Shown piece after piece: positions 4,520 to 57,700 of a DNA stretch of 64,000 bases. This DNA comes from a bacterium. Its GTDB lineage: Bacteria > Patescibacteriota > Minisyncoccia > JBBINA01. The first letter of the stretch is position 1. Every line of letters begins with the position of its first letter. The notes under the pieces are model-generated. The model saw nothing but the letters and a program-made list of their open reading frames with translations, did no database searches and was not told the origin of the DNA. The stretch spans positions 6,272 to 70,271 of the forward strand of contig JBBINA010000002.1 in assembly GCA_037444125.1 (NCBI GenBank), written 5' to 3'. The translations under genes and the position numbers were made by a program.

Positions 4520-7604
<3,085 letters not shown>

Positions 7605-7647
7605 CCTTTTATAGACTAAATCAATTTTTTAAAAAAAATAATCAAAA

Positions 7648-7764
7648 GCCCCTTGGTAACAATACTGAAGAGGAAACGCTCCTTCTCATCCCGAACAGGA
7701 AAGCTAAGCTCTTCAAGGCCGATGATACTCGTTTAACGGGGAAAGTAGGTAATTGCCAAGGGGC
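7648..7764 (+). rRNA. rrf: 5S ribosomal RNA
   Basis: Terminal helix gccccttggtaa...ttgccaaggggc and an internal ccgaacagg...gatgatactcg pattern typical of 5S. Followed by a T-run. Confidence 0.85.
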
Positions 7765-9892: not shown

Positions 9893-10813
9893 CTAATGGC
9901 TATCTTTAGCAAAGGCGCGTAGTTTTGCGGACCTAGCTGAAGGATTATTTTTTACTTCTTCTTTTGTCGGACGAACTGCCTTAAAAGTAATAACTTTTCC
10001 TTTTTTACTTTTCTGAAAAGCTTTAAAAGTGTATTTTACTAATCTGTCTTCTAATGAGTGGTATGAAACAATTACAAAACGACCTTGCGGTTCGAGAATT
10101 TGAATACCAGCATTTAAAACCCGCCTTAAATTATCCAACTCGGAATTAGCTTCAATTCTCAATGCCTGAAAAACTTTGGTCAAATAATTTATTTTTTTGT
10201 TTCGGTAAAATTTTTCTAAAGGCTTTAGAACTGCAGCCAACTGGCCTGTGGTAACTATTTTTTCCTGTCGCCGACTTTTAGCCACTAAACCCGCCGCCAA
10301 TCTTGAATGCCTTTCTTCGCCATACTCACGAAAAATTTGCTCTAAACCATCGACAGGATAATAATTCAGAATTTCATAAGCCGGCTTACCATAATTACCA
10401 TATCGCAAATCAATTATTTCATCTTTTTTAAAAGAGAATCCTCTACCTGACTTTTCAAGCAAAAAACGAGATATCCCCAAATCTATATAAACTCCAAAAA
10501 TCTTAATATCAGATAAAACTTGCCTTAATTCTTCAATAACTTCCCTGACTTCCGCGAAGTTACGATTTATATATATTACTCTTTGGCCAAATCTTTCAAG
10601 CCTTTTTTGGGCAACAAACAAAACCTTCTCATTCAAATCAAAAGCAACCACTCTACCTTGAGGACCATTTCGAGTTAAAACTTCATAAGCAAAACTACCT
10701 TCACCCAAAGTACAATCAAGATAATCTAAATTCTGCTGAACATTAAGGTAGAATAACGATTCTTTTAAAAGAACTGGGGTGTGAATAATATTGTCGTAAT
10801 TGCCATCGGTCAT
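9893..10813 (-). CDS. rsmH: 16S rRNA (cytosine1402-N4)-methyltransferase RsmH (MraW)
   Basis: N-terminal HTPVLL...LDCTLGEGS is MraW-like. Conserved dcw position. Confidence 0.85.
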   Translation of the reverse strand: MTDGNYDNIIHTPVLLKESLFYLNVQQNLDYLDCTLGEGSFAYEVLTRNGPQGRVVAFDLNEKVLFVAQKRLERFGQRVIYINRNFAEVREVIEELRQVLSDIKIFGVYIDLGISRFLLEKSGRGFSFKKDEIIDLRYGNYGKPAYEILNYYPVDGLEQIFREYGEERHSRLAAGLVAKSRRQEKIVTTGQLAAVLKPLEKFYRNKKINYLTKVFQALRIEANSELDNLRRVLNAGIQILEPQGRFVIVSYHSLEDRLVKYTFKAFQKSKKGKVITFKAVRPTKEEVKNNPSARSAKLRAFAKDSH

Positions 10814-12347: not shown

Positions 12348-13150
12348 AGATTTTCGTGTTTAGAAAAATTAACATAAGCATACACCAACAAATTATTAAG
12401 GTCAATATAGTATTCAGAAGAAACTGGTATCGTTATCTCAAAATCTCTCCGCTTAAATGGTTCTATATCATAAAGTATTGTTGAACCAGCGGTTACAATC
12501 TTTTGTGTATCTCTAGAATCGTAAAAGATAGCAATAACTTCAACCTCTTTATAATTAATAACACTATCATTAAAAAGATGACCTCTAACAATAATTCTTC
12601 TGCCAACCTCCACATCACTTTCATCAAGCTCAACGGGCTCTTTTTCTAAAACTAAATTTTTTAAAAAAACAGGTTTTTTATCGCTCTTAATAAGTTTTGC
12701 CACCTCAACTGCTGCGTCAGTTATATCATCAAAAATAAGAAATGCCGGCGACAGGACAAATCTTTTCTCAAATTGATTAAGAAATTCGGAAAAATATTTC
12801 TCCTCCACTACGCCACCACCTCCTCCTTTAAAAATTATCTTATATTCCACACTCTTATAGGCAGTATCTGGATTCAAATTCTCAGCTTCAAAAATAACGC
12901 GATAATAATTATTATTTAAACGCAAGATATTAACATTACTTATGTTTATCTGCCTCTCGCTTTTGCACGGTACGCACACTCCGCCACAATCAACATCCTC
13001 TTCATTTTGATTTTTTATTTTGTCAAAACAAGTAGCTATAACCTGCGGTGAAGAAAACATTTGATAAAGAATATAATAGAAAAATGCCAAAAACAGAAAC
13101 CATATTATGGCAATCTGGGTTTTCTTAAAAACGCGTCTTATTTCATTCAT
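12344..13150 (-). CDS. hypothetical membrane-anchored Cys-rich protein
   Basis: N-terminal TM. The stop overlaps the uppS start (ATGA). Confidence 0.45.
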   Translation of the reverse strand: MNEIRRVFKKTQIAIIWFLFLAFFYYILYQMFSSPQVIATCFDKIKNQNEEDVDCGGVCVPCKSERQINISNVNILRLNNNYYRVIFEAENLNPDTAYKSVEYKIIFKGGGGGVVEEKYFSEFLNQFEKRFVLSPAFLIFDDITDAAVEVAKLIKSDKKPVFLKNLVLEKEPVELDESDVEVGRRIIVRGHLFNDSVINYKEVEVIAIFYDSRDTQKIVTAGSTILYDIEPFKRRDFEITIPVSSEYYIDLNNLLVYAYVNFSKHENL

Positions 13151-13451
13151 AATGAAAATTATATAAAAATAGGGCTGATTTGCAAATATTAATTAAAATG
13201 GCTTACCTAAATCAGGCGTTAATTACGTGGGCTAATTTCATCTTGTTTTTCTTTCCTAGTTACATTACTATTTTAACCAGTTTTAAATTAAATTACTAAT
13301 AAAAAGTAAAAAGTAATTATGTTATTTTCTTGAAGAAAAATTAAAACAACGCATAGATTTAACACATAAAAATCTATGAAATTTTATAAATAAACGTCTT
13401 TGCTATGTTTAACTTTTTAACAATCTTGAAATAAAAAATAGATGTAATATA

Positions 13452-13471
13452 ATATCAATGCAAATTGATAT
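13452..13471. promoter_or_regulatory. perfect palindrome ATATCAAT-gcaa-ATTGATAT overlapping a TATAAT -10; candidate ArsR operator
   Basis: Read directly, about 65 nt upstream of the arsR-like start. ArsR/SmtB regulators bind inverted repeats overlapping their own promoter. Confidence 0.45.
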
Positions 13472-13534
13472 TTAAAATTAATTACTGTAAAAATAAAAAA
13501 TCAAAAAAACAATCTTAAAGAAGTAGTTAAATTT

Positions 13535-13786
13535 TTGAAGATAATTTCAGAAGAAAACCGCCTGAAAATTTTGTGCATTTTGCAAAAACAAAAAAAGTGC
13601 GTTTGCGAAATTTGGCAATTTTTAAATTTACCGCAGAACTTAACCTCCCATCATCTTAAAATATTGAAAAACGCCGGTTTAATCAATTTAAAGAAAAAAG
13701 GAACTAGAATTTTTTATTTTTTAAATAAGAAAAACATTAAAAAGTCGATATCTTTATTAAATAAATTTTTAAATAACCAAATATGA
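13535..13786 (+). CDS. arsR: ArsR/SmtB family transcriptional regulator
   Basis: 83 aa. A CVCEIW metal-binding-like segment precedes a winged-HTH pattern (LTSHHLKILKNAGLI). Confidence 0.7.
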   Translation: MKIISEENRLKILCILQKQKKCVCEIWQFLNLPQNLTSHHLKILKNAGLINLKKKGTRIFYFLNKKNIKKSISLLNKFLNNQI

Positions 13787-14022
13787 CTATCAAAATTTTA
13801 GGTTCCGGCTGTCCTAATTGCCAAAAATTAGAAGAAAACGCTAAAAAGGCTATTAAAGAACTAGGATTAAAAGATGTAAAAATTGAACACATCTACGATA
13901 TAAACAAAATAGTGGAAATGGGTATAATGTCCACGCCAGCCTTAGTAGTAAATAATCAAATAAAAATCGCCGGCAGAATTGCCGATGTAGCAGAAATCAA
14001 AGAGTTGCTAAAAAATCTCTAA
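13783..14022 (+). CDS. small thioredoxin-fold redox-active disulfide protein
   Basis: 79 aa with a GSGCPNC CxxC motif. Start overlaps the arsR stop (ATGA). Confidence 0.65.
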   Translation: MTIKILGSGCPNCQKLEENAKKAIKELGLKDVKIEHIYDINKIVEMGIMSTPALVVNNQIKIAGRIADVAEIKELLKNL

Positions 14023-14030
14023 TTCTAATT

Positions 14031-15011
14031 ATGATAAAAGCGCTTGTTGATTATTTAATTTTTCATTTGCTTAATTCCTTTCTTCAAGCTAAAGGAATTT
14101 ACCTTTCTGAACGAACTTTAGACATTATCAACTTCTTTATTTACGATGTTGTTAAAATTGGGCTTTTGCTTTTTATTATCACTTTTTTTGTTTCAATAAT
14201 TAAAGAATATTTAAGGCCGGAAAAAATAAGAAATTTTTTATCAGGTAAAAAATTGGGATTAGGTAATTTTTTGGCCGCTTGCCTTGGAGCCATTACTCCT
14301 TTTTGCACTTGCTCCGCTATCCCTTTGTTTATTGGTTTGACGAAAGCTAATATTCCTTTAGGCGTAACCTTTTCTTTTTTAATTGCTTCTCCTTTGATTA
14401 ATGAGGTAGCAGTAATGCTCCTTTTTGGTCTCTTTGGTTTTAAGTTTGTTTTAGTTTATGTTTTAGCTGGACTTATTGCCGCTGTTTTTGGCGGTTATTT
14501 TATCGGTAGGTTAAAATTAGAAAATCAAATAGAAAAAAGTGTTTTAAATCTCAAAAAAGAAGGTTCTAACCTTTCTTTTATTCCCCAAAAATATTCATTA
14601 GATCGAACAATAAGAATTGGTATAAGTTCGGCAAAACAGATTTTAAGGCAAGTTGGCCCTTATATTCTTATTGGCGTTGGAATTGGCGCTTTTATTCACG
14701 GTTATGTGCCAGCTGATTTTGTTGCAGGTATTACTAAAAAAGCAGGAATTTTAGCTGTCCCTGCTGCGGTGATTATTGGTGTTCCGCTTTATTCTCACAT
14801 TGCTGGCGTTTTGCCAATTGCCCAAGCGCTTTATGAAAAAGGTATGGCTATTGGTACTTTAATGACTTTTATTATGGCAACTGTTGGCCTTTCTTTGCCG
14901 CAAATGATAATTCTGAGTCGTTTAATAAAACTTAAACTTTTAGCTATTTTTGTTTTTACTATCTCAACATTTTTTATCATTTTTGGTTATATTTTCAACT
15001 TAATTTTTTAA
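14031..15011 (+). CDS. ArsP-like permease (DUF318/PF03773 family)
   Basis: Polytopic membrane protein with a TPFCTCSAIPLF motif resembling the ArsP TPFcSCS signature. Confidence 0.6.
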   Translation: MIKALVDYLIFHLLNSFLQAKGIYLSERTLDIINFFIYDVVKIGLLLFIITFFVSIIKEYLRPEKIRNFLSGKKLGLGNFLAACLGAITPFCTCSAIPLFIGLTKANIPLGVTFSFLIASPLINEVAVMLLFGLFGFKFVLVYVLAGLIAAVFGGYFIGRLKLENQIEKSVLNLKKEGSNLSFIPQKYSLDRTIRIGISSAKQILRQVGPYILIGVGIGAFIHGYVPADFVAGITKKAGILAVPAAVIIGVPLYSHIAGVLPIAQALYEKGMAIGTLMTFIMATVGLSLPQMIILSRLIKLKLLAIFVFTISTFFIIFGYIFNLIF

Positions 15012-15057
15012 AAGGTCGACATTTTTTATAATTAATTAAATTTATTAATAAAAATTT

Positions 15058-15324
15058 ATGAAAGTATTAAAATTCGGTGCCGAGTGGTGCTCAGGATGCA
15101 TTGTTATGAGGCCTCGGTGGAAAGAAATTGGAAATTGAAGGTGAGCTACCTTGGTTAAAACAGAATATTATGACTATGACAAAGACAAAGAAATGGTAGA
15201 AAAATACAAAATTGACAAAAATCTACCAACTTTTGTTTTTCTTGATAAAGATGGAAATGAAATCCTACGCCTTCACGGCGAACCATCTAAAGAAGAACTT
15301 TTTGAAAGTTATTGAAGAAAATAA
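15058..15324 (+). pseudogene. thioredoxin (WCSGC) reading frame interrupted by in-frame TGA codons
   Basis: The frame from the ATG gives AEWCSGC...TEYYDYDKDKEMVEKYKIDKNLPTFVFLDKDGNEIL (thioredoxin-like). It contains TGA at 15136 and 15142 and a terminal TGA at 15313. Confidence 0.5.
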
Positions 15325-15338
15325 AGATAAATAAATTT

Positions 15339-15929
15339 ATGTTAAAAAAACAATAATTTTACTTCTGGGGGTTGTTGTTGCTTTTGTTTTTTTCTTCACT
15401 TCAGTCTTTAAAACGGAAAAAAATTTTGCCGAAGAGGTCGAAGAAAAAGTAAATATTTACTTTTTCTGGGGTGAAGGTTGTCCGCATTGCGCTAAAGAAA
15501 AACTTTTTTTAGAAAAACTTGCCAATAAAATACCCACAAGTTAATATTTATGATTTTGAAGTTTGGTATAAAAACGAAAATAGACAATTACTTATTGAAG
15601 TCGGCAAAAAATTAAACGCCACTGTTCCAGGCGTCCCTTTTACAGTTTTTGGGGAAAAATATTTTACTGATTGGTATAACGAACAAAGCACCGGAGCGGC
15701 GATAGAAGATGCGGTAAAATTAGTTTTACAAAAAAGCTCTCGCGATGTGATTGGCGAGTTATTAGCTTTAAAACCGGAAGAGAAGAACTTAGAGGAAAAA
15801 TTTGAAAAAGAGAACAAAAGATCACCAATTCCTCAAAAAATTAAAGTCCCCTTTTTAGGAGAGATTGAAACAAAAAATCTATCTTTACCCGTGCTTGCAG
15901 TTATTTTTGGAAACGTTGGATGGTTTTAA
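15339..15929 (+). pseudogene. membrane-anchored thioredoxin-fold protein (FWGEGCPHC) with homopolymer frameshifts
   Basis: MLKK (frame 0) switches to a TM helix plus CPHC domain (frame +2) at an A7 run (15344-15350). It returns to frame 0 at an A4 run (15527-15530), giving YPQVNIYDFEV...VPGVPFTVFGEKYF. Confidence 0.45.
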
Positions 15930-15939
15930 CCCATGCACT

Positions 15940-16580
15940 ATGTGGGCTTTGCTATTTTTAATTAGCTTGCTTTTGGGAATGAAGGATAAGAAAAGAATGT
16001 GAATTTTGGGAAGCGCCTTTATTATTGCTTCAGCCTCTGTTTATTTTCTTTTTATGGCTGCTTGACTCAACCTTCTTTTATTTATAGGTTTTATTGTCTG
16101 GATAAGAGTAGCAATCGGCTTACTAGCTTTAGGTGGCGGCATTTATAATCTACGCGAATTTTTTATTAATAAAACAAGCGGTTGCAAAGTGACCGGTGAA
16201 AAAAGCGACAAAAAGTTTTTGAAAAACTAAAATCGATTACCCAAAAACAACAATTTTTGCTGGCTTTAGTTGGAATAATAATTTTAGCTGGAGCAGTAAA
16301 CCTGGTCGAACTGATTTGTTCAGCGGGCTTACCAGTGGTATTTATACAGATTTTAACTTTAAGTAGTTTGGCAAAATGGCAGTATTATCTTTATATGCTA
16401 ATTTATATTTTTGTTTTTATGTTAGACGGCTTGTTTGTCTTTTTTGCCGCTATGATAACCTTACAAATGACTGGCATCACCACAAAATATACTCGTTTTT
16501 CTCATCTTATTGGCGGAATTTTAATGTTGATTATAAGAATTTTGCTTATCTTAAAACCAGAATGGTTAATGTTTGGATAA
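15940..16580 (+). pseudogene. CcdA/DsbD-like disulfide-reductant membrane domain (WFNPCTMWALL and ELICSAGLPVVF Cys motifs), disrupted
   Basis: In-frame TGA at 16000 and 16063. Frameshift in an A-run near 16209-16214. Likely originally fused to the upstream thioredoxin-fold ORF through a T4-run frameshift at 15924-15927. Confidence 0.4.
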
Positions 16581-17192
16581 GTATTATAATAATATATCGT
16601 ATTTTGCGAAACCTTAAATTTATTTTTATTGAACAACAATATTTTGAGAGATGATTAGTTTTTGTTCCATTGGTTCTTCGCCTCCAGGTTCCGTTACTTT
16701 TTCATACACATTCACAACATAATTACCTGAAGGAATATTTTGAAGTTTAGCTTCTATTTTAGAAAAGCATCTACATTTACAACCAATACCACTCCACACC
16801 TCATAAATGTTTCTAACTGAATTTGCTTTTCAATCAGCTTTTCTACAGCAAAGATGGTTTATTGCCCTTAAATATAAAACTTCATTTCCTATGTTTGGTC
16901 CTTCTCAGTTTCTTTACCAAAAGATAAAGATTTAGTGACCATCCCTTTGTCAGTTTTAGCACAACCTTTTACTAAAGAAGAAAGAGTAATATTTGAAGAT
17001 TTGATGATGATAATGTTGTTAGTTTTTTTAGGAATTATCCTAAAGATAGATTCCAACTATCCCAATGATTAAGAAGACAAAAACTAATGAAACTATTATT
17101 TTTTTTGTTCATAATAAAGCAAATTTTATTTGGAGATTTTAATCTCCATAGTAGGTCCTTCAATATTTAAAAATTTTAAGTCATCGTATTTA

Positions 17193-18617
17193 CTAACCAT
17201 TTTTTAAACTCTCATAAATTAAATTATCAATTTCTTCTCGCAATTTTTTGATTTGTTCTTTGTATTGATTACTTTTTTCTTCCCGTTGCTGTATTTCTAA
17301 AACAATTTTTTGTTGAGTTTTTTTATCAATTGCCGGAATAGGGAGTTTTCTAATAGACCAGTTTGTAATTTCCTTTTGGCTTTTACCAGTTGAAAAAGCC
17401 CAGAAGAAATCTGAACCAAAAGAAGATTGTAAATAGTATTTTAGAAAAAGGGCATCATCTAAATTATTGAACTCTATAACCGCAAGGTGGTGAGACGGAA
17501 TAAATATTCGTTCATCATTGGTGTCTTTATTAAAAATAATACATTTTCCAATTGTACCAGAGCGGGTCAAGATTAAATTATTCTCATTTATTGCAATGTT
17601 TTTATATTGTTCTCCTATAACATCTTGTAAGAAAATTGGTTCTTCTAAATTCAATTCGTTTGAGGAAATATTATTGACTCTTAAATATACAAAATTTGTA
17701 TCATAAGAAGAATAATATTTCTTTGGGATATACTCTCCACTTCTAATTTTTTTAACATATTTAGTAAAAGGTATGTAATTTCCTTTTAAATTTTCTTTTA
17801 CAAATATAGGCAATTCATCCTCAATAAATCTACAAAGGTAAGTTCTAATACTTAACCAGTTTGATTTAGATATATTTTTAAAATTATTTTTCAAATTGTA
17901 TTCTTCATCTCTTTTTAGTTTTGGTCTTGTTGAATATCCATTCTTAACAAAAACATCATCAATGATATCTTGAATAGATTCAATTTTTTTCTTAGTAGAT
18001 CGAATTTTGTTTTCTATTTCTTCTATTTTTTTAACTATTGTTATTTGCTTTTGATAATTGATAAATGGAACTTTCATTGCAAGAAAATCTGGTATGTGTA
18101 TTCGTGGATGAGTTTTCCCTGATGTTAAAAGTTCTAAATCACTTCTAAAACTTTTATGAAGAAGCAAATACATTAGAAATTTGATGTCCCAACTTCTGCT
18201 TTTTAATCTATAACCAATTAGTTCTGTAGTTCCTATAATTTTTTTTGCTTTATCATTTAAAAAGCAGTGGCCTTTTTCAGGGGTGAGTTTTGAATATACA
18301 ATATCAGCATCATTGAAAAAGGTTTTGTCAGATCCTATCTCTGCAACCACAATCTCATTTTTTATAGCACCAAATCCAGGTTCAATGTCATCTAAATCGG
18401 CTAAAATCATTTCTTCTTCTAATTCACCCTTTTTTATTGTTGTAGTATTAGCAAGGTCTAAAATCTTACCTAACGGCATACCTGTTTTTCTGCTCTTTTT
18501 TAATAATTCAGTAATATTATTTTTTTCATCTTTAAAATATCTGTACTTAGAATCTAGACGTAATTGTTTTTGAAGTCCTATTTTAAAAAAGTTTGTACTA
18601 AAAATTATCTGTTCCAT
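17193..18617 (-). CDS. hsdS: restriction-modification specificity subunit (HsdS-like, two target-recognition domains)
   Basis: 474 aa. Conserved central and C-terminal coiled-coil repeats are typical of HsdS. Overlaps the MTase gene by 13 nt. Confidence 0.75.
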   Translation of the reverse strand: MEQIIFSTNFFKIGLQKQLRLDSKYRYFKDEKNNITELLKKSRKTGMPLGKILDLANTTTIKKGELEEEMILADLDDIEPGFGAIKNEIVVAEIGSDKTFFNDADIVYSKLTPEKGHCFLNDKAKKIIGTTELIGYRLKSRSWDIKFLMYLLLHKSFRSDLELLTSGKTHPRIHIPDFLAMKVPFINYQKQITIVKKIEEIENKIRSTKKKIESIQDIIDDVFVKNGYSTRPKLKRDEEYNLKNNFKNISKSNWLSIRTYLCRFIEDELPIFVKENLKGNYIPFTKYVKKIRSGEYIPKKYYSSYDTNFVYLRVNNISSNELNLEEPIFLQDVIGEQYKNIAINENNLILTRSGTIGKCIIFNKDTNDERIFIPSHHLAVIEFNNLDDALFLKYYLQSSFGSDFFWAFSTGKSQKEITNWSIRKLPIPAIDKKTQQKIVLEIQQREEKSNQYKEQIKKLREEIDNLIYESLKNG

Positions 18618-20971
18618 TTTACATATTTTCTTAAATAATCCAAAATAGTTTTTGGATTATTAGTATCGATATAAATTATTCTGTCTGAATACTCTCCTTC
18701 CGAATTAAAAAGTTGATTAGGACGTTTTTCTTCTTTGCGAACCCCTCGCTTATAGCCAATTTCTTCAGCGTGAGCCATAAATATAGGGTAGTCCTGCTCT
18801 TTAGATACATTTTTAAACACCCACCATTCAAGATCGGCTTCTTGTATATTTTCTTCATATTTCTCTTTAAGTTCTTTAAATGATAGTTTTTTATCTTCAG
18901 GGTCAAAATTTTCTTCTCCTAAAAGTTGAATTAAAAGTTCTATAAATTTCTTTTTATTTTCTTCCTTCTCTGATTTTAATAATTTTTTTATTTCAGAAAT
19001 CAGTTCTTTGTATTCATCTTCGTACTTTGACCATAACTTATTCCACTCTTCTACCTCTTCTTTGGTTTTCTTTTGCGCGAAAAGCAAGCTCGTTTTTGTT
19101 TGAGTATAAGGTGCGAAAGCTAAATGAGGTAATGAAACAACCGCTTTAATCCAAAAATATTTATAAAGGAAGAGCCGGATATCTCTATTGCTGGTTGTAT
19201 CAAAAACGCTTTCGGGGAGAACAACGCCCATTCGCCCGCCTTCTCTCAATAATTGATACCACCTTTCTATAAAAAGATTTTCTGTATCAACTTCCAATTC
19301 TTTGTTATTTTTAAGAGTCTTTGCTATTTTTTCTCCTCTCAAATAAAGCCTTGGAAACTGCTTAGCTGTATCTCTGTCTACGGTCACACTAAATGGTGGA
19401 TTAGAAACTACTACATCAAATTGTTCGTTTACAGGAAATGAATAAACTTTGCTTTCATGTTTTTCTGCTAATTTTCTGTGATAATTACTAAAATCAATTA
19501 AACCGTCGGCAGGCTCAATATTTGCGGAACCATCGCCATGGCCAACCATATTTACTTTTGAAGCCATCGCCAAATCAGAATTTATTTCAATACCATAAAT
19601 ATATTCGTCTGCCCAGGCATTTTTGCGCAATCTTTGAAAATTTTTGTCTAAAAATTCTTGTGTTGCGTAATCTTTTTTGATTTTGCCCTCCTTTTCTGCT
19701 TCCTCCTTAACTTTATCAATTAGTTTCATCGCGTGAATTAAAAATGTCCCAGAACCGCATGCAGGATCAATAATATAAGGCAATCTCGTTTCATTGTTTA
19801 TTAAGTTTAAAGTTAATTCATCTAATCTTAGAGCATACAGGATAAAATCAACTATATTCGGATGTGTAAGATATTGTCCTTTTGTTTGTTTTAGTTCTTG
19901 CCTAACAATTTTCTCAAAGAAATCACCGAGAACATCATACTTATTTTGTAAGAAAGATATGTCTTGCAGCACCTCAACAACATATTTTACTTTTGGGGCA
20001 TCAAAAATTATGTCTTTTACCTTCTCTAAATCTTCATCTTTATAATTTAATAATCGTTTTAATGCACAATCTTTATATTTTCCAGTTTTAGAATCTTTCT
20101 CGCCTTTATAAAGCTTGTTAATTCTTTTATAGGTTTTTTCTGGGGGTTCTTGGTCTAATCCTTCAAAGAAAATTTGAAATTGGTAAGGTTCGCCTTCTGG
20201 CGTTGTTTTCTCGTCGTAAATTTTTGCCAAAAACATCCCGATTAAATTAAAGAAAAGCTCGTTTTGATACTTACCCCCACCCCATAAAATATTGTGGAGT
20301 TCTCTTGCAATCCTATCTAATTCTTCCTTTTTTACATCTAATCTTAAATCTTTTTCTCCTCCTTTTATAAATGCCGGCGGCTTATCTTTAATTTCATAAT
20401 TTTTTGGAATATATCTTAAATTAGGACGACCAGCAGCCTCCCAATCATCAAAAGATTTAAATTTTGTGTAATCTATTGTCTCGTATTTTTCTTGTAATTT
20501 GCCATCATCGTCATACCAACGAGTGTAATAAATAAGAAATTTTAAAGTTCCTTTACCCTTATCTTCTGTAGCAGCAGGTTCAAAAAGTTGGGTTTTAATT
20601 GAAGATTCAAAATATCTTTCGTAATCATCTCGGGGCTTTAACTCAAAAAGCATAAATGGATTATGGTTCTCATTATAAACAACGATATCCATTTTAATAT
20701 CTGTTCTTTTGTGAGGATGCCCGATCTTTCGATATTTCTCTAATTCAATTTTATCTGGTCTGTAGTTATACTTTTCTATTAAATCTACATACAGTTCTGC
20801 TCTAACTTGCTCCTCCGGATCTAAAAAATTATCGGTATACCCTTGGGCTAAATAAGTAATTTTGAAACCATCGTGACTAATCAAAATATAACCCTTTTCT
20901 TCCCCGAGCTTAACTAAGAAAGATTTTTCACCAGTAATAATTTCTTCTTTTTGTGGTTTGTATTGTGCCAT
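18605..20971 (-). CDS. N6-adenine DNA methyltransferase (gamma class) with N-terminal PD-(D/E)xK nuclease-like domain
   Basis: Motif I DPACGSGTFL and motif IV NPPF are present. The N-terminus has a D-x13-ELK pattern (MDIVVYNENHNPFMLFELKP). 788 aa is larger than a typical HsdM. Confidence 0.7.
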   Translation of the reverse strand: MAQYKPQKEEIITGEKSFLVKLGEEKGYILISHDGFKITYLAQGYTDNFLDPEEQVRAELYVDLIEKYNYRPDKIELEKYRKIGHPHKRTDIKMDIVVYNENHNPFMLFELKPRDDYERYFESSIKTQLFEPAATEDKGKGTLKFLIYYTRWYDDDGKLQEKYETIDYTKFKSFDDWEAAGRPNLRYIPKNYEIKDKPPAFIKGGEKDLRLDVKKEELDRIARELHNILWGGGKYQNELFFNLIGMFLAKIYDEKTTPEGEPYQFQIFFEGLDQEPPEKTYKRINKLYKGEKDSKTGKYKDCALKRLLNYKDEDLEKVKDIIFDAPKVKYVVEVLQDISFLQNKYDVLGDFFEKIVRQELKQTKGQYLTHPNIVDFILYALRLDELTLNLINNETRLPYIIDPACGSGTFLIHAMKLIDKVKEEAEKEGKIKKDYATQEFLDKNFQRLRKNAWADEYIYGIEINSDLAMASKVNMVGHGDGSANIEPADGLIDFSNYHRKLAEKHESKVYSFPVNEQFDVVVSNPPFSVTVDRDTAKQFPRLYLRGEKIAKTLKNNKELEVDTENLFIERWYQLLREGGRMGVVLPESVFDTTSNRDIRLFLYKYFWIKAVVSLPHLAFAPYTQTKTSLLFAQKKTKEEVEEWNKLWSKYEDEYKELISEIKKLLKSEKEENKKKFIELLIQLLGEENFDPEDKKLSFKELKEKYEENIQEADLEWWVFKNVSKEQDYPIFMAHAEEIGYKRGVRKEEKRPNQLFNSEGEYSDRIIYIDTNNPKTILDYLRKYVKWNR

Positions 20972-21135
20972 ATTTATTTCACTTATTTTTTTTATTAATT
21001 CTATTGAATTCTTTTTTCAACCGCTTAATCTCGGCTAAAAGTTTTTCTTTTGATTGATTTTGTATCTTTTTTATAGCCATAACTTTTTACTTCAATAAAA
21101 AATCATCACAATCTAAAGAACTTTAGCTAATCTTG

Positions 21136-21207
21136 TGGACCCGAGGGGACTCGAACCCCTGACCTCCCGCGTGCAAGACGGGCGTTCTACCGCTGAACTA
21201 CAGGCCC
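21136..21207 (-). tRNA. tRNA-Ala (anticodon UGC)
   Basis: Cloverleaf folded by hand: acceptor GGGCCUG with a G3:U70 pair, anticodon loop CUUGCAC, T-arm GGTTCGAGTCC. CCA is not encoded. Confidence 0.9.
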
Positions 21208-23138
21208 TTTTCTAAATTTAATCGGTTAAGCTCTCGTCTTGCCTCAATATTATATTTATCTATCTTTAAAGATTCAATTAAATATTTCCGCGCCTCATTT
21301 AACTCGCCATTATTTCTATGTATTAACGCCAGAATATAATAAGCCTGCGACAGCTTTTCTATTAATTGAATGCTGGCGCTGCGAGCAACAATCATATCGC
21401 TAGGATAATAATCTAAAATACTCTTAATTACCCTTACGGCATCGTTTATCCTGTTATTTAGATAATAAAAAAACCCTAAATTGATATAATACTCGGGATT
21501 ATTATATTTATCAAGGGAAACGGCTTTTAAAAAATTATTCTCGGCGGAAACTAAATCTTTCTTTTCCATTAAAATTAATCCATTCAAGCTGTAAACCCTT
21601 GCATTATAAATATTATACCTCAAAGACCGAGAAACGAAATTCTCGGCTAATTCTAATCTTATGGAATCAGATGTCTGACGATAAATATTGTAATTAAGAA
21701 GGGCAAGCTGATAATTGTTTTCTTCATTATCAAAAAACCGAAGCGAATCGACAAAACTTCTTTCTGCTTGCTTAAACTGTTTAGTTTCAACATAAAATTT
21801 GCCCAACTCGAAGTAATGATGAAACCAATAACTTTTAAAAGCGCTTTTACCAAACCAAAAAATAATACCTAAACATATCAAAGTCGCTAAAATTAATTTT
21901 TTACCTGAAAACTTCAGGATATCCTTTTTAAATAAGTGCGTCAATAAACCTATATAAACCCCAAAAATAAAGAATAGACCAATGTAATGCCAAGAAACCT
22001 CAAACAACATATTCAATAAAAAAGAAAGGAAACCTAGAAAAACAAAATAAAAAAATTCGGAACACTTTTCCTGTCTAAGTTTTTTCGCTATTTTAAAAAC
22101 AAAAAGAACTGTAAATATTAAAAAAATTATACCTAGCAAACCAAGGTCAGATAGCATTTCAATAATTATATTATGCGGGTAAATAGAATATCCAACCGGG
22201 GAAACCTGATAAAATGGCAAAATTATTTTGTAAGTTCCCGGTCCTGTACCTTTTAAAATATTATCTTGAAAAATACGCCAACCTTCCACGATAAACTCAA
22301 CTCGCCCGCGCAAAGACAAGGTATAATTAAATTTAAAGCGGCCCAAAATATTCTCATACAAATTTGTGTACTGAAGAGAAATTAAAAAAAGAAAAATAAA
22401 TACAAAAAACATAAATAAAGGCAAAAGGCTTGGCATTTTTTTACGGCGCTTTAAAAAATAAGAAACTCGATTATTTATAAGTCTATCTTTAAACAAAAGC
22501 GCAAAAATCACGCTAGCTAAAAAAAAGCTAAGCAAACCCCCTCGTGATAATGTTAAAAGAAAAGCGCTAATAAAAATAACTAACTGAAAATTCCAAAAAA
22601 TATTATTTTTGGCTTTTTGTTTTAAATAATAAGAGATTGGCAGTATTAACAACAAAAACGAAGCCAAAACATTAGGATTATTAAAAACTGAACTAAAATG
22701 ATCTTTATCAATAAACAAATAATAATAATATCCAATAACCACCACCACTAAACCTAAGAAAACAAAATATTTAAGTATATTAATGATAGTTTTACTAGTA
22801 AGGTCAAAAGAGTGTATGATAAAAACCACCGCAAGAAAGACGCTGATGTAAAAAAAACTTCGTAGTGATTCAAACCTATTCACAGAAAATTCAACTGCCA
22901 TCAAATAAACAGCAACAATAATCGCTAAAATAATTAAAAATGTCTTATTGTAAGTTAACTTCTTGGAAATAACCAAATTTCTTAAAAACAAAAATGCTAA
23001 TAACGCAGCTAAAATAAGACTAAAACTTTCAGTAAAATAATAAGCCGCTTGCCGCGCAAAAATTACTGTAATACCAATAAGCAGGCAAACAAAAAAAACA
23101 CTAAGATTTTTATAAATGAATTTATCTCTTAACTCCAT
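21198..23138 (-). CDS. O-antigen ligase-like polytopic membrane protein with C-terminal TPR repeats
   Basis: About 12 TM segments followed by several TPR-like repeats. The last codons overlap the tRNA-Ala 5-prime end by 10 nt. Confidence 0.5.
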   Translation of the reverse strand: MELRDKFIYKNLSVFFVCLLIGITVIFARQAAYYFTESFSLILAALLAFLFLRNLVISKKLTYNKTFLIILAIIVAVYLMAVEFSVNRFESLRSFFYISVFLAVVFIIHSFDLTSKTIINILKYFVFLGLVVVVIGYYYYLFIDKDHFSSVFNNPNVLASFLLLILPISYYLKQKAKNNIFWNFQLVIFISAFLLTLSRGGLLSFFLASVIFALLFKDRLINNRVSYFLKRRKKMPSLLPLFMFFVFIFLFLISLQYTNLYENILGRFKFNYTLSLRGRVEFIVEGWRIFQDNILKGTGPGTYKIILPFYQVSPVGYSIYPHNIIIEMLSDLGLLGIIFLIFTVLFVFKIAKKLRQEKCSEFFYFVFLGFLSFLLNMLFEVSWHYIGLFFIFGVYIGLLTHLFKKDILKFSGKKLILATLICLGIIFWFGKSAFKSYWFHHYFELGKFYVETKQFKQAERSFVDSLRFFDNEENNYQLALLNYNIYRQTSDSIRLELAENFVSRSLRYNIYNARVYSLNGLILMEKKDLVSAENNFLKAVSLDKYNNPEYYINLGFFYYLNNRINDAVRVIKSILDYYPSDMIVARSASIQLIEKLSQAYYILALIHRNNGELNEARKYLIESLKIDKYNIEARRELNRLNLEKGL

Positions 23139-23180
23139 TTGAACATATTATATCACTACAAAAAAAATTTATATATAAAA

Positions 23181-23208
23181 AAACGCCTCAGAGGCGTATA
23201 TTTTTTAC
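23181..23208. terminator. hairpin acgcc-tcaga-ggcgt flanked by A/T runs (bidirectional rho-independent terminator) downstream of the 16S 3-prime end
   Basis: Read directly from the sequence. Confidence 0.4.
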
Positions 23209-23347
23209 TACTAATTAAACTAACTATATATTTTTTATACGCATTTTAAGTTCCACGACGAAGCAGATTTTTATAGATAATCTGCAAAATCTTTGAACAA
23301 TTTTATCAATTGTTCAAGTCGACGCTTCAAACACATAAAACGTGTTT

Positions 23348-24848
23348 GAAAGGAGGTGATCCATCGCCAGCTTCCGCTAGCGATGCCTTGTTACGACTTA
23401 TCCCCTATCACCGGGCCCACCATCATCCCGCAGAAAACGGTCTTTCCGGTGTTCCCAGCTCTCTTGGATTGACGGGCGGTGAGTACAAAGCTCGAGAACG
23501 TATTCACCGCGGCATTCTGATCCGCGATTACTAGCGATTCCAGCTTCATGAGGTCGAGTTGCAGACCTCAATCCGAACTAAGGAATGTTTTTTGGGATTA
23601 GCTCCGCCTCACGACTTCGCAGCCCTTTGTACATTCCATTGTATCGCCTGTGCAGCCCAGGTCATAAGGGCCATGCGGATTTGACGTCATCCCCTCCTTC
23701 CTCCTGGTTAACCCAGGCAGTCTCCCTAGACATCTAAAACTAAGGATGGGGGTTGCGCTCGTTACCCGACTTAACGGAACACCTCAAGGCACGAGCTGAC
23801 GACAACCATGCAACACCTCGCCATGATGTCCTTGCGGAAATCTAACTTTCGTCAGATTATCACCATGACATTCCAGACCTGGTAAGGTTTATCGGTTACC
23901 GTCGAATTAAGCCAGACGATCCACCGCTTGTGCGAGCTCCCGTCTATTCCTTTGAGTTTCGGCCTTGCGGCTGTACTACCCAGGCGGGAGACTTAACGCG
24001 TTAGCTTCGCCGCTGAAAGGGTCGACACTTCCAACGACTAGTCTCCATGGTTTAGGGCGTGGAATACAAGGGTATCTAATCCTTTTTTATGCCCACGCTT
24101 TCGTCCATGACTGTCAGGTGGCACCTAGTGAGTTGTTTTCACCTTTGGCGTTCCCCTGGGTATCAACGGATTTCACCCCTACTCCCAGAGTTCCACTCAC
24201 CCCTTTGCCCCTCTAGAAATACCGTTTGAGAAGCAGCTTAAAACTAAAGTCTTAAGATTTAACTCCTCACAAGTATTTCCAGCTGCGGACGCTTTACGCC
24301 CAGTAAATCCGGACAACGCTTGAGGTCTCTGTATTACCGCTGCTGCTGGCACAGAGTTAGCAACCTCTTATTCCTGAAGTACCGTCATTCCGAACTTGCG
24401 TTCGGAATTCTTCCCTCAGAAAAGCAGTTTACACCCCGAAGGGCTTCTTCCTGCACGCGGCGTCACTCGGTCACCCTTTCGGGCATTGCCGAATATTCTC
24501 GACTGCTGCGACCCGTAGGCCTCCGGGCAGTGTCTCAGTCCCGGTGTTGGGGAACAGCCTCTCAGCCCCCCTACCCGTCATAGGCTTGGTGAGCCGTTAC
24601 CTCACCAACTACCTGATAGGCCGCAGGCCCCTCTTGAAGCGGATTGCTCCTTTAATGAAAACCGGAATTAACCGATTCTCATACCATCTTGTATTAGCCC
24701 CAGTTTCCCGGGGTTATTCAAAACTTCAAGGTAGGTACCTACGTGTTACTAACCCGTTCGCCACTATGCGCGCTCAACACGCGCATCGTACGACTTGCAT
24801 GCCTTATCCACGCCGCCAGCGTTCGTCCTGAGCCAGGATCAAACTCTC
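23348..24848 (-). rRNA. rrs: 16S ribosomal RNA
   Basis: Reverse complement begins agagtttgatcctggctcag and ends ggatcacctcctttc. Universal blocks are present (gtgccagcagccgcggtaatac-like, 1492r region). Length is about 1501 nt. Confidence 0.95.
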
Positions 24849-24930
24849 TTATAAAAGTAGCATAAATATTCGTCTGTGGAACTTAAAATAAGTATAAACT
24901 AGCCAAATTTCAAAAGAACTTTTATTTAAA

Positions 24931-54727: not shown

Positions 54728-57700
54728 TTATCCTCCTCCTTCTGCATTGCTATTTTTTAATTCCTGTAGGTTCTCTTCTGTTTCTTGCATCTCTTCGTTC
54801 GCGCTTGTGTTTTGCGAATTTGTATTTTGCTCATTATAAGAATCTTGAACACTGTTATCAATTTGCTCATTATTTGTGTTTGGCAAATTTGTATTCTGAT
54901 TATTAACTATTGTTTCTTCGTTTTTATCATCTTGGCTTTGATAATTAGAGTTTCCCTCACTCTCTTGCGAAGACAAGTTTTCTGATGAATATCCATTTAA
55001 ATCCGAAGAACTTGTACCTTTAGGATAGATACCCGATTTTTCAAGCAACTGCCTAAGCTCCTCTTTTGTTATGCAAATATCCTCAAGACAAATTTTTTGA
55101 GCTTCAATTTCCTTAGCAGAAAGCCTTTCAAAAAGCCAATTGCCTGCAGTTTTGATTGTGCCCGTAAGTTGCGAAATAGCATCCTTAAGATAGGTTAAAA
55201 GCAGTGTCAAAAATGATTGATTATTAACTTGTAAGTTAACTTCTACCCCATCTTGAATTAGATTGCCGTTTTGGCTGATAGCCAGTTTCAAGCCTTCAAT
55301 TTGTTTTGAAAGTTCTTGGATGGCGTTAACTAAAAATGGAGTAAAGCCGATATAATTTAAACTTTTTGAACCATCAGATGCAGTTAAAACAAGTTCAGGA
55401 ATTATCTCTTCTACTTCTTGAGCTCCAAAGCCAAAACGCAAAGCATTATCAGTTTGGTTTTTCCAACGATAGATAATTGGATTTAAAGCCATAATTTTTT
55501 CCAAAGAACCTGAAAGAGAACCAATTACCTCCTTTGCTCTAATATCAGAGGAACAAATTAAAGCGGTATTAGTTGGATTAATAGTGCAGGTGCCATTTGC
55601 GTCAGTAAAACCAGCTACATCGCCATCAGTACTGCGAGAAACATGCAAAAGATAGCCAGGGGCGGTCGTCCCGATGCCGACATTACCACCAAGTGGTGCC
55701 AATAATAAATTAGTGCCTTGCTCTGGTATGATTTTAAACCCTCCAGTTCCAAGTTGTATATATCCATATCTGGTAAAAGGTCCTCCAGCTGTTGTTTGCT
55801 TCTCAAAGTTTATATACAAATCTTCATTGTTTGAAGCAGTATAACTTTTCCTAAATGTAGCCAATGTTCCCCATTCAGAAACTCTATTGAAAAGGGCATG
55901 ATCAATTACTTCCAAATGCGCCCCCGGGCTCGTCGTCCCGATGCCCAATCTCTTATTCGTATTATCCCAGAATAAATTAGTATTATCTTGAGAAATTGCG
56001 CCTCCTGAACCAGCAAATAAAATTGAACCAATAGTTAATCCTGAAAGATTAAGACCAGAAAAAGTAGGAGAAGCTCCAGTATGAATATCTTGGGGCAAAG
56101 ACAAAGTGACATTTCCGCCAATTACTCTGCCAGTCCCATTGGTGACTGTTATTTGATTGGCTGTACCTAAAATATCTGAAAGAGCAGTCACTCCTGTGCC
56201 GCCATAATTTATTGAAATTGTATTTCCTTGCCAAGTTCCAGAATTAACTATTCCTAAACTAGAAGTTCCAACTATGTTGATAGACTGAGCGTTAAGAACT
56301 CCATTAATAGTAGTAGTTGCTAAGGAAACTTGTCCGCCTGACTGAACTAAAGGACCCGAAAAAGTAGAAGTTGCGCTTCCTACAACAGTCAAAGCACCTT
56401 GAGTTATAATATCTCCGTTCGCATTAACCCTAAACTTCTCTAAATTATTAACAGATAAGCCAAGCAAAGAAAAAGTTGAATCTGCGCTTGTTGGATTTAT
56501 GTATAAAGATGACTCATTTATATTACTAGATGTCGGCTGGTAAGTAATGATTTGTTGTCCGTTTGTGGACAAACTATTTACTGATAAATTTTGAGCATAA
56601 ACTGTATTCCATTTATTTGTATCAGATCCTAAGTTATAAACATTATTAGCTGCCGGAATAAAAGAACCGCCTAATGTTAATACATTATTATCAGGAGAAA
56701 TACTGCTTAATGAATTGATATTTTTACCTGATAAAATCATTTCACCGACTCTTATTTTTGCAGGTATAAGCGAATCATCTTCAAAAGCATTCTTAACGCC
56801 TCCTATGTAACCTAAAACATTTGCAGCTGAAGAAACTGCTACCGGCGCAGATTGATAACCGAATATTGGCAGTGGTATCAATCTATTTCTTTCCTGAAAT
56901 TTTTCAACAAGAGTTTTTAATTGTAAAAGGTCATAGCTTAACTTTTGAAAATGTTCCTTAATATCAAGTAGTTCCTGAAAAATAGACTGGTCTGACGTTT
57001 TATTTAGGCTTAGTACTTTAAGTTCCAAATTTGAAATTCTTTTATTAATGTCACCGATAGAAGAAAAATCACTAATCTTACCACTGTAAAATAAACTATT
57101 TTTATTTGGTTTTGGAGTTTCTTGCCCAATAGTGCCACTAAAATTATTGACCTTTGCTTCAAGAGACAAAAGCTTCTCTTGAAGTTTACCAAGTTCTTGA
57201 CGATTTTCATTTAGATTTTGGCTAACAATTTTTATTAGATTTAATGGGAAATCTAAGCTTAAGGGTGTTTTTATTTGTTGAGAATTTATAAAGTCCGCTA
57301 ACCTGAAAAAGCTTTTAATATTAGAAAGCGCTTTTTGAGAAAAAATTTCTTCTTTATTTATAGCTACTCTTGATTGAACATTTTCTAAAATTTCTTTTAC
57401 TATAGGCCTTACATTGTTTACAAAATTGACTATCAATGTGCTTATATTTTCGTTCAAAATTTCACCAAATTCATTGATATTAATTGGTCTCGTAATGCTT
57501 AAACCGATATTTAACAAATCATTTACTTTGACTACATATCCAGTAGCAAGTCTATCTGTTAAATTAACTGCCTTGCTGAAAATTTTTTCAACCTCTGAAA
57601 ATAATCTGCTAGGCTTTGAAAAATCTGAAAAATAAGCTAAAGTTTCTAATGGTTTAGAATAAAAAAAGGAGAGAACAGATATAACAGCAAAAATACTCCA

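What the first reader, a model, noticed from the sequence alone, without database searches (positions are those of the whole stretch)
17193..20971. Restriction-modification pair without HsdR: nuclease-like domain fused to the methyltransferase, plus an HsdS-like subunit (BcgI/type IIB-like architecture)
The 788-aa protein has a gamma-class N6-adenine MTase core (DPACGSGTFL, NPPF). It is preceded by about 200 residues containing a PD-(D/E)xK-like signature (D-x13-ELK) and followed by a long Lys/Glu-rich C-terminal extension. The only partner is a two-TRD HsdS-like protein with a 13-nt gene overlap. This resembles BcgI-type IIB systems (A subunit = endonuclease+MTase, B subunit = HsdS-like) or an HsdR_N-fused type I MTase. 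Either way the restriction activity, if any, must reside in the MTase polypeptide. A 33-codon ORF sits 8 nt upstream of the MTase start.
Basis: partly seen in the sequence, partly recalled or inferred. Interest (0 to 1): 0.55.

Follow-up and report, generated by a model that had tools for sequence, protein, structure and literature searches.

The report
BsaXI-family Type IIB restriction-modification gene pair
These two overlapping genes encode an ordinary but intact member of the known BsaXI family of Type IIB restriction-modification enzymes, in which one protein both cuts and methylates DNA and a second protein picks the target, so no separate HsdR nuclease is needed.

Summary
The closest characterised relative is BsaXI rather than BcgI.

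- **RM protein (788 aa):** it matches the BsaXI RM subunit (PDB 8w0p_A) at E=5.5e-148 over residues 52-758. The AlphaFold model superposes on BsaXI (TM 0.73).
- **Nuclease site:** the four residues shown by mutagenesis to be essential in BsaXI (E73, D90, E105, K107) align to E78, D95, E110, K112 here. They are invariant or conservatively kept in 36 homologues. The domain is under purifying selection (dN/dS 0.05-0.09).
- **S protein (474 aa):** a profile of it and its relatives hits S.BsaXI (476 aa) best (E=1e-29).
- **C-terminal region:** the "Lys/Glu-rich C-terminal extension" is the BsaXI "knob" domain. The BsaXI "paddle" is absent. The protein therefore belongs to the short, knob-only subgroup already described computationally (Shen et al. 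2025).
- **No HsdR:** neither the 64-kb window nor about 25 related loci carry an HsdR-like gene.
- **Mobility:** the pair behaves as a mobile two-gene cassette with shuffled target-recognition domains.
- **The 33-codon ORF:** it is not a cassette gene. It is a vestige of the 5' end of a displaced beta-class DNA methyltransferase gene.

Verdict: a new member of a known kind, of low to moderate interest.

The parts
18605..20971 (-). RM gene: 788-aa bifunctional endonuclease-methyltransferase subunit, BsaXI family
   Evidence: ORF. phmmer to 8w0p_A RM.BsaXI gives E=5.5e-148 over residues 52-758. AlphaFold2 model has pLDDT 84.3 and pTM 0.78. Foldseek top hit is BsaXI, TM 0.73.
20432..20929 (-). 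N-terminal PD-(D/E)xK endonuclease domain (residues about 15-180)
   Evidence: Pfam HSDR_N_2 at 52-113, 31.5 bits against a cut-off of 25. The domain model alone has pLDDT 87.7 and matches the BsaXI nuclease domain with TM 0.65-0.72, E 2.5e-11 to 7e-9. dN/dS is 0.05-0.09.
20636..20740 (-). Catalytic signature E78 ... D95-x14-E110-L-K112
   Evidence: These align to BsaXI E73, D90, E105, K107, whose alanine mutants lose cleavage (PMC11997821). D95, E110 and K112 are invariant, and E78 is E in 32 and D in 4 of 36 homologues. Coordinates checked.
19892..20374 (-). Multi-helical connector (residues about 200-360)
   Evidence: Helices 215-359 in the model. Corresponds to BsaXI residues 193-348.
19064..19891 (-). 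Gamma-class N6-adenine methyltransferase domain (residues about 361-636). Motif I DPACGSGTFL is at 19739-19768 and motif IV NPPF at 19391-19402.
   Evidence: Pfam N6_Mtase E 1.6e-25 and Eco57I E 3e-13. Motif residues are invariant in 36 homologues. Coordinates checked.
18791..19063 (-).
   Evidence: A long helix at 637-665 plus four shorter helices lie between MTase strands. This aligns to the BsaXI knob, residues 626-742.
18608..18790 (-). C-terminal beta-rich piece and last helix (residues 728-788); no 'paddle'
   Evidence: The model shows only short strands and helix 776-783. The alignment to BsaXI ends at query 758 / BsaXI 774 of 916. The only C-terminal insertions seen in longer homologues fall between query residues 758 and 775.
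17193..18617 (-). S gene: 474-aa specificity subunit. TRD1 is at 18033-18617, CR1 at 17910-18032, TRD2 at 17328-17909 and CR2 at 17196-17327. Its start overlaps the RM gene by 13 nt.
   Evidence: Pfam Methylase_S, two stretches. A profile of 14 family S proteins hits 8w0p_C S.BsaXI best, E 1e-29. An S gene follows the RM gene in nearly all related loci.
20979..21080 (-). 33-codon ORF. It is a vestige of the 5' end of a beta-class (PF01555) DNA methyltransferase gene and is not part of the cassette.
   Evidence: Cassette homology to related loci stops at 20962-20967. The first 25 codons are 68% identical to the N-terminus of 561/564-aa PF01555 methyltransferases in L033/L032. Nucleotide identity is about 77% for some 88 nt and then collapses near 20990.
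20972..21134 (-). Upstream non-cassette DNA between tRNA-Ala and the RM start codon; presumed promoter region (inferred)
   Evidence: No gene other than the vestige lies here. The promoter scan gave no enrichment over shuffles.

Best explanation
This is a two-gene Type IIB restriction-modification system of the BsaXI family, in its short 'knob-only' form.

**Assembly (inferred from BsaXI).** The S protein (TRD1-CR1-TRD2-CR2) reads a bipartite, probably asymmetric, DNA sequence. Two copies of the RM protein dock on its two target-recognition domains to give an (RM)2S complex.

**Modification (inferred).** Each RM copy uses its gamma-class S-adenosylmethionine-dependent domain (DPACGSGTFL / NPPF) to methylate one adenine per half-site on host DNA.

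**Restriction (inferred).** On unmethylated foreign DNA, the N-terminal PD-(D/E)xK domains (E78, D95, E110, K112) cut with Mg2+ at fixed short distances outside the site, most likely on both sides. There is no ATP-dependent translocation and no HsdR.

**Origin.** The pair is a horizontally mobile cassette whose specificity changes by swapping target-recognition domains. Here it sits in a probable Patescibacteria (CPR) genome next to tRNA-Ala, where it appears to have displaced most of an older DNA methyltransferase gene.

**Shown versus inferred.** Shown: homology, fold, conserved catalytic and cofactor motifs, gene linkage, and absence of HsdR nearby. Inferred: stoichiometry, cleavage on both sides, the recognition sequence, and activity in the absence of the paddle.
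For: - Sequence: phmmer to RM.BsaXI gives E=5.5e-148 and 498 bits, query 52-758 against BsaXI 47-774.
- Structure: the full-length model (pLDDT 84.3) has BsaXI as top hit, E 1.8e-58, TM 0.73, 40% identity. The next hits are Type I HsdM proteins at E about 1e-13. The N-terminal domain alone matches the BsaXI nuclease domain, TM 0.72.
- Catalytic residues: they align to the BsaXI residues whose mutation abolishes cleavage. They are conserved in 36 homologues of 47-89% identity.
- Selection: dN/dS of the nuclease domain is 0.05-0.09.
- S subunit: the family profile hits S.BsaXI best at E 1e-29, against 5.5e-17 for the best Type I HsdS. Lengths are similar, 474 and 476 aa.
- Gene linkage: among the loci with sequence downstream of the RM gene, all but two (L001, L013) have an S-like gene directly after it. 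No HsdR is seen next to it in the seven annotated contexts.
- Window: none of the 42 other ORFs of 120 aa or more that were scanned is helicase- or HsdR-like.
- Cassette limits: nucleotide similarity to related loci covers only 17151/17200..20967.
- Precedent: short, paddle-less BsaXI homologues with a knob are described in PMC11997821.
Against: - No biochemical or methylome data exist for this protein or, as far as the papers read show, for any paddle-less member.
- In BsaXI itself two paddle residues (D816, E823) are needed for cleavage, and this protein has no paddle.
- Only 64 kb of the genome is visible, so an HsdR elsewhere cannot be excluded.
- The window's own S protein does not hit S.BsaXI as a single sequence. 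Only the family profile does.
- No convincing promoter or terminator was found.
Confidence: 0.85

Rival explanations
1. The pair is essentially a methyltransferase. Without the BsaXI paddle the short form cannot make double-strand breaks, or only nicks. It would then act as an orphan or epigenetic bipartite m6A methylase whose nuclease domain is silent or has another role.
For: Paddle mutants D816A and E823A inactivate BsaXI cleavage, and this protein has no paddle. No paddle-less member has reported activity in the papers read.
Against: The nuclease catalytic residues are invariant across 36 homologues and the domain has dN/dS 0.05-0.09, which is unexpected for a dead domain. Other active RM+S Type IIB enzymes (BcgI and others) also lack a paddle. 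The paddle residues are not conserved even among BsaXI homologues, and the authors favour an indirect role.
Confidence: 0.1
2. The pair is a Type I M+S methylase core that works with an HsdR translocase-nuclease encoded elsewhere in the genome. The N-terminal HSDR_N-like domain would be accessory.
For: Public annotations call the homologues 'type I restriction enzyme M protein'. PADLOC's best full-length model is labelled MTase_I. The S subunit has Type I HsdS architecture. Only 64 kb of the genome can be inspected.
Against: - The TIGR00497 hsdM score is 47 bits against a cut-off of 243.
- The closest solved relative by about 135 orders of magnitude in E-value is a Type IIB enzyme that needs no HsdR.
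- No HsdR lies next to the pair in the seven annotated gene contexts from about five lineages, nor in the window.
- The nuclease residues are conserved.
Confidence: 0.03
3. The pair is part of a methylation-associated defence system (MADS), as the MAD2 methyltransferase and MAD5 specificity subunit.
For: The best NCBIfam names are MADS2 (206 bits) and MADS5 (63 bits). PADLOC mad2 and mad5 models also hit.
Against: The scores are far below the curated cut-offs (720 and 400). The MAD2 hit covers only residues 213-645, that is the connector and methyltransferase core. No other mad genes are present in the window or in related loci.
Confidence: 0.01

Closest known systems
BsaXI (Type IIB; RM 916 aa + S 476 aa; PDB 8w0p/8w2p/8w2q; Shen et al., NAR 2025, PMC11997821)
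   Same: - Same two-gene RM + S architecture.
- Same domain order: PD-(D/E)xK nuclease, helical connector, gamma-class N6A methyltransferase, knob.
- About 40% identity over 700 residues.
- All four catalytic nuclease residues conserved.
- S subunit of the same length and TRD1-CR1-TRD2-CR2 plan.
   Different: - Lacks the C-terminal two-helix 'paddle' of roughly 125 residues, which includes D816 and E823.
- The target-recognition domains are unrelated at the single-sequence level, so the recognition sequence differs from AC(N5)CTCC and is unknown.
Short (<800 aa) knob-only BsaXI homologues (Fig. 9 of PMC11997821)
   Same: Same length class (788 aa) and the same predicted knob without paddle. 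Most homologues found here are 760-800 aa.
   Different: That group is known only from sequence and AlphaFold models. This copy adds a further host lineage (probably Patescibacteria) and its own pair of target-recognition domains.
BcgI / CspCI-type Type IIB enzymes (RM + S, 2RM:1S)
   Same: Same logic: an N-terminal PD-(D/E)xK domain fused to a gamma-class methyltransferase, a separate HsdS-like subunit, and no ATP or HsdR (general knowledge; PMC4081073).
   Different: According to PMC11997821, BcgI-type RM subunits have a Type I-like methyltransferase with a C-terminal helix that joins the S coiled coil, and they have no knob. Direct similarity to BcgI was not tested here because no sequence was available.
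Type I restriction-modification M2S core (HsdM/HsdS, e.g. EcoKI, EcoR124I)
   Same: Homologous methyltransferase core and S subunit (Foldseek E about 1e-13 to HsdM structures; HsdS structures hit by the S profile). Bipartite recognition through two target-recognition domains.
   Different: Here the nuclease is fused to the methyltransferase. No HsdR motor subunit is present. Cleavage is expected at fixed positions near the site rather than far away.

Membership tests
Type IIB restriction-modification, BsaXI family | N-terminal PD-(D/E)xK endonuclease domain with the catalytic E...D...E-x-K residues | tested here: met
   E78, D95, E110, K112 align to BsaXI E73, D90, E105, K107 and are conserved in 36 homologues. 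The domain model matches the BsaXI nuclease domain, TM 0.72.
Type IIB restriction-modification, BsaXI family | Gamma-class N6-adenine methyltransferase in the same polypeptide (motif I then NPPF/Y/W) | tested here: met
   DPACGSGTFL at 402-411 and NPPF at 524-527. Pfam N6_Mtase E 1.6e-25.
Type IIB restriction-modification, BsaXI family | Separate S subunit with two target-recognition domains and two conserved helices, related to S.BsaXI, encoded next to RM | tested here: met
   Two Methylase_S stretches. The family profile's best PDB hit is S.BsaXI, E 1e-29. The genes overlap by 13 nt. The linkage is conserved in nearly all related loci.
Type IIB restriction-modification, BsaXI family | Knob domain inserted in the methyltransferase fold (it cradles the target-recognition domain in BsaXI) | tested here: met
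   Helical bundle at 637-726 in the model, aligned to the BsaXI knob.
Type IIB restriction-modification, BsaXI family | C-terminal antiparallel two-helix paddle (a feature of BsaXI itself and of the >850-aa homologues, not of the whole family) | tested here: not met
   Only 30 residues follow the last BsaXI-aligned position, and there is no long helical hairpin in the model.
Type IIB restriction-modification, BsaXI family | No ATP-dependent translocase or HsdR partner | tested here: inconclusive
   None is present in the 64-kb window or beside homologues. The rest of the genome is not visible.
Type IIB restriction-modification, BsaXI family | Cleaves both strands on both sides of a bipartite site, and hemimethylation blocks cleavage | not testable with these tools
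   This needs enzyme assays or run-off sequencing.
Type I restriction-modification (HsdM) | Reaches the curated hsdM model score and works with an HsdR helicase-nuclease | tested here: not met
   TIGR00497 gives 47.2 bits against a cut-off of 242.75. No HsdR-like ORF is present in the window.
MADS (methylation-associated defence system) | MAD2 and MAD5 at curated score, plus the other mad genes in the locus | tested here: not met
   206 bits against 720, and 63 bits against 400. No further mad genes nearby.
BcgI-type Type IIB | Type I-like methyltransferase with a C-terminal helix that joins the S coiled coil; no knob | not tested
   No BcgI sequence or structure was available in the tools. 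The model here has a knob and no C-terminal long helix, which argues for the BsaXI branch.

The most novel reading that the evidence does not exclude
The paddle-less form may be a fully active Type IIB endonuclease that makes double-strand cuts on both sides of its site using only the N-terminal PD-(D/E)xK domains. It would then be a natural control showing that the BsaXI paddle is not a second active site. That would settle the choice between the mechanisms left open by Shen et al. 2025. The vestigial methyltransferase 5' end in front of it would mark a recurrent spot where restriction-modification genes replace one another.
Probability: 0.5. Interest if true: 0.4.

Novelty: new member of a known kind. 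Interest (0 to 1): 0.22.

Why it matters
- **Annotation:** public annotation calls these proteins 'type I restriction enzyme M protein' or 'N-6 DNA methylase'. Recognising them as complete, self-sufficient Type IIB nuclease-methylases changes how defence repertoires and methylomes of uncultured lineages, here probably a CPR bacterium, are read.
- **Enzymology:** a short knob-only relative with 40% identity to BsaXI is a ready test of whether the paddle is needed for cleavage.
- **Possible tools:** the family's naturally shuffled target-recognition domains are a source of new Type IIB specificities, for example for 2b-RAD-type methods.
- **Overall:** none of this is conceptually new.

Tried and rejected
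- **Contig look-up:** looking up the contig that encodes the window's own RM protein gave nothing on record.
- **Repeats:** a repeat search over 13000-23400 found no flanking direct repeats, no inverted hsdS copies and no shufflon-like structure, only short AT-rich chance matches.
- **Promoters and terminators:** 18 promoter-like sites were found against 21.9 expected, and no terminators. This is uninformative.
- **MADS:** rejected on score and context.
- **Small ORF as RadC remnant:** the alignment was unconvincing, and the methyltransferase 5' end explanation fits far better.
- **Rest of the displaced gene:** a tblastn search for the remainder of the displaced methyltransferase gene, or for DUF3644 or RadC, elsewhere in the window found nothing.
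- **S protein alone:** a single-sequence search of the S protein against the PDB did not reach S.BsaXI. Only the family profile did.
Full report
**Observation.** The ORFs exist as described. A 788-aa ORF lies at 18605..20971 (-). A 474-aa ORF lies at 17193..18617 (-) and overlaps the first by 13 nt. A 33-codon ORF lies at 20979..21080 (-), 7 nt upstream of the 788-aa ORF. Pfam finds HSDR_N_2 at residues 52-113 (31.5 bits, cut-off 25), N6_Mtase at 344-683 and Eco57I in the large protein, and two Methylase_S stretches in the small one. The motifs DPACGSGTFL (402-411) and NPPF (524-527) are present.

**What the large protein is.**
- A sequence search of all PDB chains gives one outstanding hit: RM.BsaXI (8w0p_A, 916 aa), E=5.5e-148, aligned over query 52-758 and BsaXI 47-774. 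The next hits, Type I HsdM proteins, are at E=8e-10 or weaker.
- BsaXI is a biochemically and structurally characterised Type IIB enzyme. It is an (RM)2S complex that recognises AC(N5)CTCC and cuts on both sides of the site, without ATP or HsdR (PMC11997821).
- An AlphaFold2 model built on 36 homologues (pLDDT 84.3, pTM 0.78) has BsaXI as top Foldseek hit (E 1.8e-58, TM 0.73, 40% identity).
- The model shows the BsaXI domain order:
  - an alpha/beta nuclease domain (about 15-180);
  - a helical connector (215-359);
  - the methyltransferase (about 361-636);
  - a helical 'knob' (637-726);
  - a small beta-rich C-terminus.
In BsaXI the knob helps cradle the target-recognition domains of S.

**The nuclease.**
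- In BsaXI, alanine substitutions at E73, D90, E105 and K107 abolish cleavage. In the alignment these are E78, D95, E110 and K112 of the window protein.
- In an alignment of 36 homologues (47-89% identical), D95, E110 and K112 are invariant, and position 78 is E in 32 and D in 4.
- The N-terminal 200 residues modelled alone (pLDDT 87.7) superpose on the BsaXI nuclease domain (TM 0.65-0.72, E down to 2.5e-11). The weak, non-significant hits that follow are mostly other PD-(D/E)xK proteins, such as AddAB nuclease, RecE, a Cas4-family protein and DrdV.
- Against three relatives of 87-89% protein identity, the nuclease domain has dN/dS 0.05-0.09, with synonymous sites near saturation. It is being kept by selection.

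**The S protein.**
- As a single sequence it does not reach S.BsaXI. This is expected because target-recognition domains diverge fast.
- A profile of 14 S proteins taken from downstream of RM homologues hits S.BsaXI (8w0p_C, 476 aa) best, at E 1e-29. Type I HsdS structures follow at E 5.5e-17 and weaker.
- The layout is TRD1 (1-195), CR1 (196-236), TRD2 (237-430) and CR2 (431-474).

**Context and linkage.**
- Seven annotated gene contexts from public assemblies and 19 loci from species-representative genomes were examined.
- Among the loci that extend past the RM gene, all but two have an S-like gene directly after it, usually overlapping. In the seven annotated contexts no HsdR or helicase gene lies next to it.
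- The exceptions are 1031-1043-aa relatives (P0015, P0032; L001) in which RM is fused to one target-recognition domain and no separate S gene follows. L013 probably belongs with them; this was not checked.
- Nucleotide similarity between the window and every related locus is limited to 17151/17200..20967, which is exactly the two genes. The flanks are never shared.
- Relatives of 87-90% protein identity occur in assemblies labelled WOR-3, Omnitrophica, Paceibacterota, Brachyspira and Aenigmatarchaeota.
- The window's glutamyl-tRNA synthetase is at most 77% identical to anything, and about 47-49% identical to named Patescibacteria proteins. The host is thus probably a CPR bacterium, and the pair is a horizontally moving cassette.
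- Target-recognition domains are visibly shuffled between S genes. Some are shared in one half only, some are permuted, and some sit next to an identical CR2.
- In the window itself, none of the 42 other ORFs of 120 aa or more that were scanned has helicase, HsdR or other restriction-modification domains.

**What differs from BsaXI.**
- The protein ends 30 residues after the last BsaXI-aligned position. It lacks the paddle, a long two-helix hairpin of roughly 125 residues.
- In the longer homologues sampled, the extra residues lie in an enlarged knob, in an N-terminal extension, or in a 50-residue insertion between query residues 758 and 775.
- In BsaXI the paddle mutants D816A and E823A lose cleavage. 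However, those residues are not conserved among homologues, and the authors lean towards an indirect role.
- The same paper already reports, from AlphaFold models, that BsaXI homologues under 800 residues have the knob but no paddle.
- The window protein is one of these. That makes it a new member of a known kind. No activity is reported for any short member in the papers read.

**Mechanism.**
- Shown: homology, fold, intact cofactor and catalytic motifs, purifying selection, conserved RM-S linkage, and no HsdR nearby.
- Inferred from BsaXI and Type IIB knowledge (PMC11997821; PMC4081073):
  - an (RM)2S assembly;
  - m6A methylation of one adenine per half-site of a bipartite target;
  - protection by hemimethylation;
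  - Mg2+-dependent cuts at fixed distances outside the site, probably on both sides.
- The recognition sequence is unknown. TRD1+CR1 has the same length as in S.BsaXI, which is compatible with a similar short spacer. This is weak evidence, because deletions in BsaXI's CR1 did not change the spacer.

**The 33-codon ORF.**
- It lies outside the block shared with related cassettes.
- A sensitive search found a 50-nt match (84% identity) in the same position, 9 nt upstream of the RM gene, in a Nitrospinae locus (L026), where it forms a 35-codon ORF.
- A scan of metagenome contigs for the 24-nt core gave six loci:
  - three further contigs carrying the same sequence as the Nitrospinae locus;
  - two in which the motif is the true 5' end of 561/564-aa beta-class DNA methyltransferase genes (PF01555, E 1e-35 and 8e-40);
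  - one with a 26-codon stump and no restriction-modification gene after it.
- The window ORF's first 25 codons are 68% identical to those methyltransferase N-termini. Nucleotide identity is about 77% for some 88 nt from the ATG and then falls to random near 20990, about 20 nt before the RM start.
- No other part of such a methyltransferase gene is left in the window.
- The ORF is therefore best read as the stump of an older methyltransferase gene, most of which was displaced when, or after, the cassette arrived. It may still supply the promoter; that part is inferred.

**Rivals.**
- A Type I M+S core with a distant HsdR is very unlikely (hsdM model 47 bits against 243; context as above).
- MADS is excluded on score and context.
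- The only serious rival is that paddle-less forms methylate but do not cleave. Conservation of the nuclease residues and of the domain argues against it, but only an assay can settle it.

**Verdict.** This is a new member of a known kind. Interest is low to moderate.

Noticed in passing
window 4528-7761 (+), 21135-21207 (-), 21198-23138 (-), 23349-24854 (-): The rRNA genes are unlinked. 16S is on the minus strand, and 23S-5S are about 15.6 kb away on the plus strand. Between 16S and tRNA-Ala(UGC) sits a 646-aa membrane protein gene (Wzy_C O-antigen-ligase domain plus TPR repeats) whose last 10 nt overlap the tRNA. No tRNA-Ile was found.
   Followed up: partly
window 20979-21080; L026 5869-5976; L031 about 10555-10635; L032 223-1917; L033 2554-4239: The conserved 5' end of a PF01555 beta-class DNA methyltransferase gene survives as a 26-35-codon stump in front of unrelated downstream genes. 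This is seen before two different BsaXI-like cassettes and once before a glycosyltransferase. It suggests repeated gene replacement at this spot.
   Followed up: yes
L002 6440-8004; L007 7330-8004; L012 5390-5995; L016 1178-1675; L018 5569-5952; L031 11040-11750; L033 4607-5290: A RadC-like JAB-domain gene lies directly upstream of the BsaXI-like RM gene in several bacterial and archaeal loci. It is sometimes accompanied by a DUF5655 gene, and the gene adjoining RM often overlaps the RM start by 4 nt. RadC also lies upstream of the PF01555 methyltransferase loci. The window has no RadC.
   Followed up: partly
L001 8001-11111 (P0015, 1036 aa); P0032 (1043 aa); probably L013: Close relatives (87% identity) have RM fused to a single target-recognition domain resembling BsaXI TRD1, with no separate S gene. 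These single-chain forms would be expected to read a symmetric bipartite site as dimers.
   Followed up: partly
S genes of L002, L009, L011, L012, L020 compared with window 17193-18617: Target-recognition domains are shuffled between S genes. L002 and L011 share TRD2-CR2 with the window (68-71%) but carry a different TRD1. L009 carries a window-TRD2-like domain in first position. L020 has an identical CR2 and different target-recognition domains.
   Followed up: partly
window 15012-17192: A 2.2-kb stretch between the ArsR-thioredoxin-ArsP permease genes and the S gene has no long ORF. It holds only several short same-strand ORFs, one with a thioredoxin-like sequence and others hydrophobic. None of the three scanned had a Pfam hit. 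This may be a frameshifted or decaying membrane-protein gene, or an assembly error.
   Followed up: partly
window 54728-57973 (-): A 1081-aa protein with a Peptidase_S74 domain (intramolecular chaperone of endosialidase and tail fibres), which is typical of phage tail-spike proteins. It sits among cell-wall genes.
   Followed up: no
window, whole: The host is probably a Patescibacteria (CPR) bacterium. GltX is at most 77% identical to any protein in the collection, and its named relatives (about 47-49%) are Parcubacteria-type. GC is 31.9% outside the rRNA genes and the cassette, 32.3% in RM and 27.1% in S.
   Followed up: partly
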